Source of the DNA: a virus
Taxonomy: Duplodnaviria; Heunggongvirae; Uroviricota; Caudoviricetes
Virus record (IMG/VR): IMGVR_UViG_2896595138_000009
Reading direction: 5' to 3' (one strand)
Length of the DNA stretch: 15,092 nucleotides
The position numbers were made by a program, and so were the translations under genes. A model generated the notes under the pieces. It did no database searches and was not told where the DNA came from. It worked only from the letters and a program-made list of their open reading frames with translations. The first letter of the stretch is position 1. Each line of letters begins with the position of its first letter. This document shows positions 1,874-3,667 of this stretch, one piece after another.

Positions 1874-2070
1874 TACTGGCTGCGACATTTTTGAATAAAA
1901 GCGTCGACATTTCGGCGCTCATAACGAACCACTTTTGCACTGAAACGAATTGGTGCCAGGATAGCCCGATGACGATGCTTAATATTCCACTCACATAGTG
2001 TTTTCTGTGTAATACCTAATTTTTGGCATACTTCATCCGGGGTGAGTAAATCGTCGGGTTTCTCGCTCAT
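1870..2070 (-). CDS. AlpA/Xis-like helix-turn-helix protein (putative excisionase or prophage regulator)
   Basis: 66-aa ORF with an HTH-like segment ([21 protein letters not shown]) in the pattern of AlpA/Vis/Xis small DNA-binding proteins. Its ATG overlaps the stop of the upstream minus-strand gene as ATGA (coupling), and its stop overlaps the integrase stop. Confidence 0.55.
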
Positions 2071-3667
2071 GCTATACCTCTCTTTTTCATGGCATCGAGC
2101 AGGATGTCCTGCACTGTTCGTTTTGAGTTGCGCTGCTCCATCACCATTTCGTCCATAGTGTCGGCAGCAATAATGTGGTGAATAAATACCGGACGATTGT
2201 GTCCGGCCTGTATCTGTCTGGTTGGGCCGATACGTTCAATAATTTGCTGATATTGCTCCAGGTCCCACCAGTGTGAGAAAAATACCAGTATATATCCGCC
2301 GTCCTGCATGTTCAGACCGTGGCCCGCGCTGGCTGGGTGTGCAAAGAGAACAGGAATCTTTCCGGAATTCCAGTCACGTAGTGTCTGTGGATCCTGGTCG
2401 AGGTGACGACCGCGAGGAAATGCTTTAAGCAAGCGTTCAAGATCGTGTTTCCAGTGATAAGCAACCAGCACAGGTGCGCCAGCTGCTTCGGTCAGTATGC
2501 TGTCCAGCGCCTGTAGTTTGGTGTCATGCAGTTCTGACCAACTTCCGGCGTCGTCTGTGTATACTGCGCCACTGGCGATTTGCAGACACTTCAGTGTCTT
2601 TGCCGCGGCGTTCGGTGCTTCGATGCCTTCGTCTATTTGTTCCTGTTTTAGTGAAGGGCGGGGAAGATTCTGGGGCTGGAATAGCCGTCCGGCCCAACGA
2701 CCGGTACGTGACGCCCCGCAGAACTGTAGCGTACCGCGTAAGCGCCCGTCGTGGCTTACGCCTTTCATCAGTGCCTTGTATTTACTGGTGCTGGTAGTAC
2801 TGGCCTGCAGGCGGATAGCCAGCAGTTCTTTCACGGCAGATGGTAAATCGGGGTCGGCTATACGACGTTCTAGGGTACTGCGTTGCATGTCTGGTAGCTC
2901 CACACCGTAGGATTCAACGATGTGCTTAATCAACGCGTCCCGTTGTGTGGCTGCCTGCACTTCGCCATCAGTCATTTCCTGTGTACGCTTTGCCAGGCGC
3001 TTTTGCTCCTGGTCTACCGCTTCGATCGCAGCGCGCGCGAGTTGCATGTCCATGCAGACGCCCCGGTCGTTGATCTGCTGATCACGATGCCAGAGCGCCA
3101 GTTCTGTCCCCTGATAATTCCACTTCGGCAGACGGTTATAGACTTCGCGCATTGCCTCGATATCCAGTCCGGCGTAAGCAACAAAGCGCCGCCATTCTTC
3201 CGGGGGGGTTTTGCTGGTGGCCCGGCGCAGTTTGCTGTTTTTCGGGCGTGGCTTACAGAACAGCTGGATCAGCGCTTTACCTTCTTTGTCCTTCGCTTTG
3301 TCTTGCGGGACGCCTAGTACTTCGCAGAGTTCCCCAGAGACCCCGGGAGACCGTGCGCCAGCGCCTGCACCATTGTGTCGCGCCAACGTTCGACTGGCGG
3401 TGCCAGGCGCGGCATTGCATAACGCAGGACGGTGCGGTCGAAGTGAGAGTTATGAAAATAAAGCAGGGTTTCAGGGGCTGCGATTGCTTCGTATAAGCCG
3501 TGTGGAATACCACCACCGGCAGTGATATCCCACACGTTTACGGGCCCGTCGTTGATAGCCCATGCGAACAGCATCACTTCAACGCCTTCGGCATACGCAT
3601 GGGTACCGTTCGTAATAGGGATTTCGCAATAGGTTTCCAGGTCGCCCCAGAGAATGTTTTCAGACAA
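2067..3667 (-). pseudogene. Frameshifted chimeric ORF: family-A DNA polymerase 3'-5' exonuclease domain plus start of the polymerase domain, fused to an SNF2-type helicase C-terminal domain
   Basis: N-terminal ORF (3667-3314) has Exo I (WGDLET) and Exo II ([12 protein letters not shown]) motifs; the next frame has Exo III-like [13 protein letters not shown] and a PolA-like segment [21 protein letters not shown] (compare TGRLSS..PNLQNIP), but motifs A/B/C are absent. The C-terminus instead carries SF2/SNF2 helicase motifs IV-VI ([47 protein letters not shown]). The two ORFs overlap at 3314-3386 in different frames, consistent with a 1-bp indel near the C4/G4 run at 3332-3335. TTG start at 3667 has a GGAGGA Shine-Dalgarno 7 nt upstream. 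Confidence 0.55.

What the first reader, a model, noticed from the sequence alone, without database searches (positions are those of the whole stretch)
2067..3667. Unusual chimera: PolA-type exonuclease and palm N-terminus joined to an SNF2 helicase C-terminal domain
The gene has Exo I-III motifs and the PolA segment just before motif A, but polymerase motifs A, B and C are missing; in their place is a clear SF2/SNF2 helicase C-terminal lobe with no ATPase N-lobe. This is not a standard architecture. It looks like a deletion fused a phage DNA polymerase gene to a neighbouring SNF2 helicase gene, and it also carries a frameshift near 3332-3335. Still preceded by a strong GGAGGA ribosome-binding site and translationally coupled (ATGA) to the downstream xis-like gene.
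Basis: partly seen in the sequence, partly recalled or inferred. Interest (0 to 1): 0.55.

Follow-up and report, generated by a model that had tools for sequence, protein, structure and literature searches.

The report
Prophage polymerase-helicase deletion fusion relic
This is a broken leftover gene in a decayed Shigella prophage: a 5-6 kb deletion between two identical 17-base stretches joined the front of a phage DNA polymerase gene to the back of a phage SNF2 helicase gene, which is ordinary prophage decay rather than a new kind of protein.

Summary
Window 2067-3667 (- strand) is the first 351 codons of a phage family-A DNA polymerase joined in frame to the last 182 codons of a phage SNF2-related helicase.

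- **Parent genes:** In intact relatives integrated at yfhL in E. coli, the two genes are separate and their junction sites lie 3.4-6.5 kb apart.
- **Junction:** It is a 17-bp exact direct repeat (window 2615-2631). The repeat encodes EGIEA in both parents in the same frame. It is the longest direct repeat in that segment.
- **Losses:** Polymerase motifs A, B and C and the helicase ATPase lobe are gone.
- **Distribution:** The same fusion exists as an open 533-aa ORF in many Shigella boydii and S. dysenteriae assemblies.
- **Recurrence:** It arose again independently in an E. coli prophage. A different pol::SNF2 fusion exists in Salmonella Napoli.
- **Surveyed relatives:** All 92 surveyed loci that hold both sites keep them 2.1-6.5 kb apart.
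- **Selection:** Changes since the fusion are mostly non-synonymous, which indicates relaxed constraint.
- **Frameshift:** The 1-bp loss (C5 to C4, 3332-3335) is seen in one assembly only. It resembles two other homopolymer contractions in this window and may be a consensus error.

This is ordinary prophage decay and of low interest.

The parts
2632..3667 (-). Polymerase-derived part: codons 1-346 of a phage family-A DNA polymerase. It holds the DnaQ-like exonuclease region and the stretch up to just before motif A. The start is TTG at 3667.
   Evidence: 96.5-99% DNA identity to intact polymerase genes. PHROG DNA polymerase E 1e-62 for residues 3-340 and exonuclease-subunit PHROGs E 4e-7.
2615..2631 (-). 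Deletion junction: a 17-bp exact microhomology, GTGCTTCGATGCCTTCG on the + strand. It extends to 26 bp with 2 mismatches (2606-2631). It encodes EGIEA in both parent genes in the same frame.
   Evidence: Three-way alignment of the window with the SNF2 and polymerase genes of L003. It is the longest direct repeat in the pol-to-SNF2 segment of L003, L009 and L010; the next longest is 12 and the shuffle maximum is 14.
2067..2614 (-). SNF2-derived part: codons 283-464 of a phage SNF2-related helicase, which is RecA-like lobe 2 (Helicase_C). The Walker A and DExx lobe is absent.
   Evidence: 97-100% DNA identity to intact SNF2-related genes. PHROG DNA helicase E 4e-62. Pfam Helicase_C 21.9 bits. 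The intact parent hits SNF2-rel_dom above its cut-off, and PDB SNF2, RAD54 and INO80 chains.
3332..3335 (-). Frameshift site: a C4 run (G4 on the gene strand) where all relatives have five. It splits the fusion into ORFs 3314-3667 and 2067-3386.
   Evidence: Alignments. The 117-aa product was found on one contig only, CP026845.1.
3675..3680 (-). GGAGGA ribosome-binding site, 7 nt upstream of the TTG start.
   Evidence: Read directly.
3703..3722 (-). Terminator-like G+C hairpin followed by a T run, between the Bro-N gene and the fusion gene start.
   Evidence: Consensus scan. This is a pattern match only.
1870..2070 (-). HTH_17/excisionase-like gene whose ATG overlaps the fusion's TGA (ATGA at 2067-2070), as in intact relatives.
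   Evidence: Pfam HTH_17 E 1.3e-5. PHROG DNA-binding and excisionase families. Same 4-nt overlap in L003.
470..1873 (+). Tyrosine integrase of the prophage, next to yfhL.
   Evidence: Pfam Phage_integrase. RefSeq annotation of relatives.
1..261 (-). yfhL (4Fe-4S ferredoxin), the chromosomal gene at the integration site.
   Evidence: Annotation of matching E. coli records. yfhL is listed among genes disrupted by phage integration in PMC3603311 and as an Stx2b prophage insertion site in PMC12029490.
3734..4510 (-). Bro-N domain gene directly upstream, the same neighbour as in intact prophages.
   Evidence: Pfam Bro-N E 3.5e-9. L001 annotation.

Best explanation
The feature is a fusion pseudogene in a decayed prophage at yfhL in a Shigella-type chromosome (record CP026845.1).

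**How it arose**
- The ancestral prophage belonged to a temperate phage family that has its own replication module: a DUF2800 nuclease, a DUF2815 ssDNA-binding protein, a family-A polymerase, a primase and an SNF2 helicase. Its polymerase and SNF2 genes were separate.
- By chance both proteins contain the pentapeptide EGIEA, written with the same codons. This gives a 17-bp direct repeat 3.4-6.5 kb apart.
- A short-homology deletion between the two copies removed the polymerase catalytic half, the accessory genes in between, and the helicase ATPase lobe. The mechanism was replication slippage or single-strand annealing; this step is inferred.
- Because the repeat is in the same reading frame in both genes, the product is an in-frame 533-codon ORF. 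It keeps the polymerase gene's ribosome-binding site and the helicase gene's stop, which overlaps the excisionase-like gene.

**What it does now**
- The fusion cannot polymerise DNA or hydrolyse ATP.
- It has since drifted neutrally and was inherited by S. boydii and S. dysenteriae lineages.
- In this assembly it also carries a 1-bp homopolymer frameshift, which is either a real mutation or a consensus error.
For: - **Breakpoint mapped to the base:** Window 1-2631 aligns with the int-to-SNF2 3' region and window 2606 onward aligns with the polymerase 5' region. The two alignments share 17 exact bases.
- **Standing repeat:** The repeat is present in intact relatives L003, L009 and L010 and in nearly all E. 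coli-type loci. It is the longest direct repeat in the segment.
- **Intact parents are clear family members:** DNA_pol_A scores 53 bits against a cut-off of 34.3, and SNF2-rel_dom scores 43 bits against 24.9. PDB hits are to Pol I and to SNF2/RAD54 chains.
- **Catalytic parts deleted:**
- **Not an assembly artefact:** The same junction is in a complete S. boydii genome, a draft genome and two read-run assemblies. A 32-member protein cluster covers many S. boydii and S. dysenteriae records.
- **Relaxed constraint:** Intact genes compared with each other give pN/pS of 0.04-0.08. Changes specific to the fusion lineage are 3 non-synonymous to 1 synonymous, plus 1 private non-synonymous change in the window. 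By my own binomial estimate, 4 of 5 non-synonymous has P of about 0.003 under the intact-gene constraint and is as expected under neutrality.
- **Decayed context:** The remnant is cut off by IS600, IS4-type and IS66-family elements from about 6019 onward.
Against: - The ORF is still open (533 aa) in many Shigella assemblies, and the exonuclease region looks intact, so a residual activity is not excluded.
- The selection test rests on five substitutions.
- The deletion mechanism is inferred from the junction and was not observed.
- No expression data were available.
Confidence: 0.9

Rival explanations
1. The fusion is a functional, selected protein. For example, it could be a stand-alone 3'-5' exonuclease, or a dominant-negative fragment that interferes with the replisome of related superinfecting phages.
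For: - An open 533-aa ORF is present in many S. boydii and S. dysenteriae assemblies.
- In-frame pol::SNF2 fusions arose at least twice more: P0131 in E. coli and P0123 in Salmonella Napoli.
- The ribosome-binding site and start codon are retained.
- The exonuclease motif residues can still be read in the sequence.
Against: - Changes after the fusion are mostly non-synonymous.
- Cluster members with shortened N-termini (449, 474 and 489 aa) suggest further disruptions.
- In-frame fusions are what a protein-cluster search is bound to find, so the in-frame status is an ascertainment effect.
- The recurrence is explained by the 17-bp repeat itself.
- All 92 surveyed loci with both sites keep them 2.1-6.5 kb apart.
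- The early promoter region of the prophage is gone, and a terminator-like hairpin precedes the gene.
Confidence: 0.05
2. The junction is an assembly artefact: a false join of the polymerase and SNF2 genes through the shared 17-26 bp.
For: A 17-bp exact repeat could in principle collapse in a small-k assembly.
Against: - The identical junction is in independent assemblies made from different data: complete genomes CP026836.1 and CP026845.1, draft QWSV01000054.1, and Logan assemblies of ERR200293 and DRR015923.
- Fusion-lineage-specific substitutions lie on both sides of the junction.
Confidence: 0.01
3. This concerns the frameshift only. The 1-bp loss at 3332-3335 is a consensus error of this assembly, and the real gene is the open 533-codon fusion as in other Shigella.
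For: - The frameshifted 117-aa product is found on one contig in the whole collection.
- All three indels between the window and S. boydii CP026836.1, over 7.3 kb, are 1-bp contractions of homopolymers in the window. They are at 3332-3335, at 12085, and at 13240 inside ipaH.
Against: - Homopolymer slippage is also the commonest real frameshift.
- Shigella genomes are rich in pseudogenes (established knowledge).
- No reads were available to check.
Confidence: 0.5

Closest known systems
Open 533-aa pol::SNF2 fusion of Shigella boydii and S. dysenteriae (for example RIG36472.1 'hypothetical protein', EFW57020.1 'DNA polymerase, phage-associated')
   Same: Same junction, same locus (yfhL-int-HTH), 99.7% DNA identity over window 1-3814. 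It differs from the repaired window protein at 3 positions: the TTG-start Met, G41E and P155H.
   Different: It has no frameshift. In CP026836.1 the remnant is shorter, with an IS66-family fragment beginning directly upstream of the fusion gene.
Intact family-A DNA polymerase of yfhL-integrating E. coli prophages (for example WP_456923387.1 in JNEC-KY203; Escherichia phage vB_EcoM-606R2). Distant relatives are in Yersinia phage YeP4, Bordetella phage BPP-1 and Hamiltonella phage APSE-1.
   Same: The first roughly 350 residues are 96-99% identical at the DNA level, with the same upstream Bro-N neighbour.
   Different: The intact protein continues for another 337 residues that hold motifs A, B and C. 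One relative (L002) also carries a roughly 257-residue insertion that reads like an intein.
Intact SNF2-related / DEAD-DEAH box helicase of the same prophages (for example WP_471723694.1)
   Same: The last 182 residues are 97-100% identical at the DNA level, with the same stop/start overlap with the HTH gene.
   Different: The intact protein has the N-terminal ATPase lobe, with GMGKT, DEST and SNF2-rel_dom at residues 29-187.
Short-homology (microhomology-mediated) deletions that create fusion pseudogenes during prophage and Shigella genome decay (established knowledge)
   Same: An exact short direct repeat sits at the junction and one copy is retained. The neighbourhood is IS-rich and selection is relaxed.
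   Different: Here the repeat lies in the same reading frame in two unrelated genes. The fusion therefore stays open, and the same event recurred in another lineage.

Membership tests
Family-A (Pol I-type) DNA polymerase | Polymerase motifs A, B and C (catalytic aspartates, O-helix) | tested here: not met
   In the intact parent these lie beyond the breakpoint at residue 350: motif A DLSNIEGR at about 386, motif B RQIGKVMELGLGYG at about 440, motif C VHDE at about 640. The PDB Pol I matches span residues 369-495. The window has none of this sequence.
Family-A (Pol I-type) DNA polymerase | Homology of the retained N-terminal part to polymerases of the family | tested here: met
   PHROG DNA polymerase E 1e-62 over residues 3-340. 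96-99% DNA identity to genes whose products pass the Pfam DNA_pol_A cut-off.
DnaQ-like DEDDy 3'-5' exonuclease domain | Exo I (DxE), Exo II (Nx2-3[FY]D) and Exo III (Yx3D) motifs in an RNase H-like fold | tested here: inconclusive
   - Candidate motifs DLET (9-12), NSHFD (73-77) and YAGLD (165-169) can be read.
- Profile support is weak: Pfam DNA_pol_A_exo1 E 0.0044, RNase_H_2 E 0.0049, PHROG exonuclease subunit E 4e-7.
- There is no PDB sequence hit for residues 1-218.
- The AlphaFold model was too poor to use, with mean pLDDT 38.
SNF2 family (SF2) helicase/translocase | N-terminal RecA-like lobe with Walker A and the DExx box | tested here: not met
   The SNF2-rel_dom match is at residues 29-187 of the intact parent. 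The fusion starts at parent residue 278.
SNF2 family (SF2) helicase/translocase | C-terminal RecA-like lobe (Helicase_C, motifs IV-VI) | tested here: met
   PHROG DNA helicase E 4e-62 over residues 345-531. Pfam Helicase_C at 21.9 bits, just under its 23.5 cut-off. Parent residues 357-457 match the C-lobes of INO80, RAD54 and the Sulfolobus SNF2 protein in the PDB.
Prophage-remnant fusion pseudogene | Both parent genes exist intact and separate in close relatives, and the junction is explained by one deletion | tested here: met
Prophage-remnant fusion pseudogene | Relaxed selection after the event | tested here: met
   4 non-synonymous changes to 1 synonymous on the fusion lineage, against pN/pS of 0.04-0.08 among intact genes. 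The numbers are small.
Prophage-remnant fusion pseudogene | No expression or activity of the product | not testable with these tools
   This needs transcript, protein or enzyme data.

The most novel reading that the evidence does not exclude
The in-frame 17-bp repeat shared by the polymerase and SNF2 genes acts as a built-in weak point of this prophage family. It repeatedly produces the same one-step knockout of the replication module, which grounds the prophage. The resulting open fusion protein, made of the exonuclease domain, a polymerase fragment and helicase lobe 2, is retained in Shigella because it interferes with replication of related incoming phages.
Probability: 0.04. Interest if true: 0.45.

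Novelty: already known. Interest (0 to 1): 0.12.

Why it matters
It matters little beyond annotation.
- The two ORFs should be annotated as one fusion pseudogene of a prophage remnant, not as a new protein architecture.
- A protein-domain screen would flag this 'exonuclease plus helicase C-lobe' as novel, and the same false lead exists in many Shigella records.
- One small point of interest remains. A chance 17-bp in-frame repeat makes this deletion recurrent and predictable in one prophage family. This gives a tidy natural example of short-homology deletion inactivating a prophage replication module.

Tried and rejected
1. **Covariation of the 17-bp repeat.** A diverged Salmonella prophage (L011) has both copies changed at the same two synonymous positions and still 17/17 identical. 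This suggested a maintained functional repeat. A survey of 92 loci showed that the two copies vary independently in most lineages, with a shared run of 3-13 nt. Only the pentapeptide EGIEA is conserved in each protein. I rejected the idea: the identity is chance plus shared codon preference.
2. **Structure of the repaired fusion.** AlphaFold2 with a 24-sequence alignment gave mean pLDDT 38.4 and pTM 0.25. That is too poor for a fold search, so none was run.
3. **PDB sequence search with residues 1-218.** Nothing was significant.
4. **DNA of the E. coli (P0131) and Salmonella Napoli (P0123) fusions.** Their junctions are therefore inferred from the proteins and from the nearest intact loci.
5. 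**Junction in complete E. coli genomes.** It is absent from all 5,426.
6. **Paper searches.** Searches for the accessions and for this module's Pfam names gave nothing specific.
7. **Shared polymerase breakpoint.** I considered whether the closeness of the Salmonella breakpoint (1 codon from the repeat) marks a break hotspot. It is probably an effect of how the protein cluster was assembled, because members must align to the 533-aa representative. I did not pursue it.

Full report
**Observation**

On the - strand, ORFs 3314-3667 (117 aa, TTG start) and 2067-3386 (439 aa) overlap and together span 2067-3667. A GGAGGA sits 7 nt before the TTG (3675-3680). The TGA of the gene overlaps the ATG of a 66-aa HTH_17/excisionase-like gene (ATGA at 2067-2070).

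Profile searches confirm both halves. In the repaired protein, residues 3-340 match a PHROG DNA polymerase family (E 1e-62). Residues 72-198 match 'DNA polymerase exonuclease subunit' families (E 4e-7). Residues 345-531 match a PHROG DNA helicase family (E 4e-62). Pfam sees only Helicase_C at 21.9 bits, just below its cut-off.

**Source and context**

The window is a Shigella-type chromosome.
- The frameshifted 117-aa product occurs on one contig in the collection, CP026845.1.
- Window 1-3814 is 99.7% identical to S. boydii CP026836.1.
- From left to right the window holds yfhL, a tyrosine integrase, the HTH gene, the fusion, a Bro-N gene, an anti-repressor fragment and a DUF551 gene.
- After these come IS3-family (IS600), IS4-type and IS66-family (ISSfl3) elements and an ipaH gene.
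- PMC3603311 lists yfhL among genes disrupted by phage integration, and PMC12029490 reports it as the insertion site of Stx2b prophages.
- The Stx2b prophage of strain STEC1590 covers the region that matched the window (H87).

**Parent genes**

About 150 complete E. coli genomes carry relatives at yfhL.
- In NZ_CP119441.1 (L001/L002), NZ_AP045179.1 (L003), NZ_CP025703.1 (L009) and NZ_CP151071.1 (L010), a DNA polymerase gene and an SNF2-related gene lie on the same strand. The polymerase is 688 aa, or 945 aa where it carries an insertion that reads like an intein. The SNF2-related gene encodes 464 aa.
- Variable genes lie between them: Ant, ANR, DUF4406, VRR-NUC/PDDEXK, Arc, Rha, TIR and methyltransferases.
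- Upstream are DUF2815, DUF2800, a LexA-like repressor and a primase.
- The intact proteins pass the Pfam cut-offs for DNA_pol_A and SNF2-rel_dom. They hit Pol I and SNF2/RAD54/INO80 chains in the PDB.
- Named relatives include Escherichia phage vB_EcoM-606R2 and, distantly, YeP4, BPP-1 and APSE-1.

**Breakpoint**

Window 1-2631 aligns with yfhL through the 3' part of the SNF2 gene. Window 2606 onward aligns with the 5' part of the polymerase gene.
- The two alignments overlap in GTGCTTCGATGCCTTCG (2615-2631), which is exact in both parents. The homology extends to 26 bp with two mismatches, and there the window follows the SNF2 copy.
- On the gene strand the repeat reads C GAA GGC ATC GAA GCA C. 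This is EGIEA in both proteins in the same frame, so the fusion is in frame.
- The missing segment is 5173 bp relative to L003 and 6462 bp relative to L002.
- It holds polymerase residues 352-688 (motifs A, B and C), the accessory genes, and SNF2 residues 1-277 (Walker A GMGKT and the DEST box).
- In L003, L009 and L010 this 17-mer is the longest direct repeat in the whole segment. The next longest is 12, and shuffled sequence gives at most 14.
- The most likely mechanism is therefore a short-homology deletion by replication slippage or single-strand annealing. This is inferred from the junction.

**Is the repeat itself meaningful?**

A diverged Salmonella prophage (L011) has both copies altered at the same two synonymous sites and still 17/17 identical. 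I tested this on 92 loci from species-representative genomes and viral contigs.
- The pentapeptide is conserved in each protein across Enterobacterales relatives.
- The DNA copies vary independently, with a shared run of 3-13 nt in most non-E. coli lineages.
- The 17-bp identity is therefore a chance product of a shared pentapeptide and shared codon preference. It holds in nearly all E. coli-type prophages.

**Distribution and recurrence**

The fusion is not unique to this window.
- A 90%-identity cluster of 32 sequences holds open 533-aa versions from S. boydii and S. dysenteriae. It also holds shorter calls of 449, 474, 489 and 502 aa.
- The same junction is present in a complete genome, a draft genome and two read-run assemblies. 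This excludes an assembly artefact.
- An E. coli version (P0131) has the same junction, but both its halves are identical to the intact prophages L039 and L040. The Shigella version differs from every intact locus by at least 5 + 2 residues, and from P0131 by 11. This indicates an independent deletion at the same repeat.
- A Salmonella Napoli protein (P0123) joins polymerase ...QEQI to SNF2 PVLFAHP.... Its nearest intact loci show a 5-bp AGATA microhomology there, about 4.0-4.3 kb apart. The Napoli DNA itself was not seen.
- None of the 5,426 complete E. coli genomes carries the junction.

**Selection**

Among intact loci pN/pS is 0.04-0.08. Codons that differ in the fusion lineage from all four intact loci are 3 non-synonymous (K178N, N459Y, R512Q) and 1 synonymous. 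The window adds a private H155P. By my estimate, 4 of 5 non-synonymous has P of about 0.003 under the intact-gene constraint and fits neutrality. The numbers are small.

**Frameshift**

The window has C4 at 3332-3335 where every relative has five. All three indels between the window and CP026836.1 are 1-bp homopolymer contractions in the window, and one of them breaks ipaH. The frameshifted product is found in this one assembly only. It may be a consensus error, and I cannot decide this without reads.

**Expression**

The early regulatory region of the prophage is gone. A terminator-like hairpin (3703-3722) lies between the Bro-N gene and the fusion start. This is a pattern match only.

**Verdict**

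This is a deletion-generated fusion pseudogene in a prophage remnant.
- It cannot act as a polymerase or as an ATP-driven translocase.
- A residual exonuclease activity of the open Shigella version is not excluded, but nothing supports it.
- The exonuclease motifs are readable, but profile support is weak. The structure model was unusable, with pLDDT 38.
- The feature is ordinary, and interest is low.

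Noticed in passing
window 13240 and 12085 (ipaH region 12336-14161, - strand): Relative to S. boydii CP026836.1, where ipaH is a 608-aa gene with LRR_TTSS and NEL domains, the window has 1-bp homopolymer contractions at 13240 (C6 to C5) and 12085 (G4 to G3). The ipaH reading frame is split into ORFs 12776-14161 and 12336-13202.
   Followed up: partly
window 6019-12092: A nest of insertion sequences cuts off the prophage remnant: IS3-family IS600 (6083-7236), an IS4-type DDE transposase (7487-8710, - strand) and IS66-family ISSfl3 (9430-12061). 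A DUF4376 tail-fibre-like fragment (8669-9376) lies between them.
   Followed up: partly
L002:1492-4326 (NZ_CP119441.1): The intact polymerase of this relative is 945 aa instead of 688. It carries a roughly 257-residue insertion (CIAPDTLVL ... LIVHN|C) inside motif B that reads like an intein.
   Followed up: no
L011:8443-9924; L003:6549-7310; L009:6795-8571 and 11454-12092: The variable slots flanking the polymerase gene in intact relatives hold defence-type or DNA-modification genes: SIR2_2, a TIR domain protein, DNA cytosine and SAM methyltransferases, and an Nmad5 nucleotide-modification protein.
   Followed up: no
L021 (Enterobacter quasiroggenkampii), L022 (Xenorhabdus indica), L060:~14181: There are other signs of decay in the same module elsewhere. 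The polymerase match is truncated at residue 393 in L021, with the SNF2 site only 2.1 kb away. The polymerase match is shortened in L022. The SNF2 reading frame is broken exactly at the EGIEA site in L060.
   Followed up: no
Protein P0123 (Salmonella enterica serovar Napoli, 440 aa, 23 contigs): This is a different in-frame pol::SNF2 fusion (…[25 protein letters not shown]…). Its polymerase breakpoint is one codon upstream of the 17-bp repeat. The nearest intact loci show only a 5-bp AGATA microhomology there.
   Followed up: partly
window 3703-3722 (- strand) and 4727-4756 (- strand): A strong terminator-like hairpin sits between the Bro-N gene and the fusion start. A near-consensus sigma-70-like site (TTGACA-18-TATATT) lies upstream of the Bro-N gene.
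   Followed up: no
NZ_CP129345.1 (STEC1590) 1305430-1315048, hit H87: The intact relative in this strain lies inside the Stx2b prophage reported at yfhL (1307496-1355384) in PMC12029490. This polymerase- and SNF2-carrying phage family therefore includes Shiga-toxin 2b prophages.
   Followed up: partly
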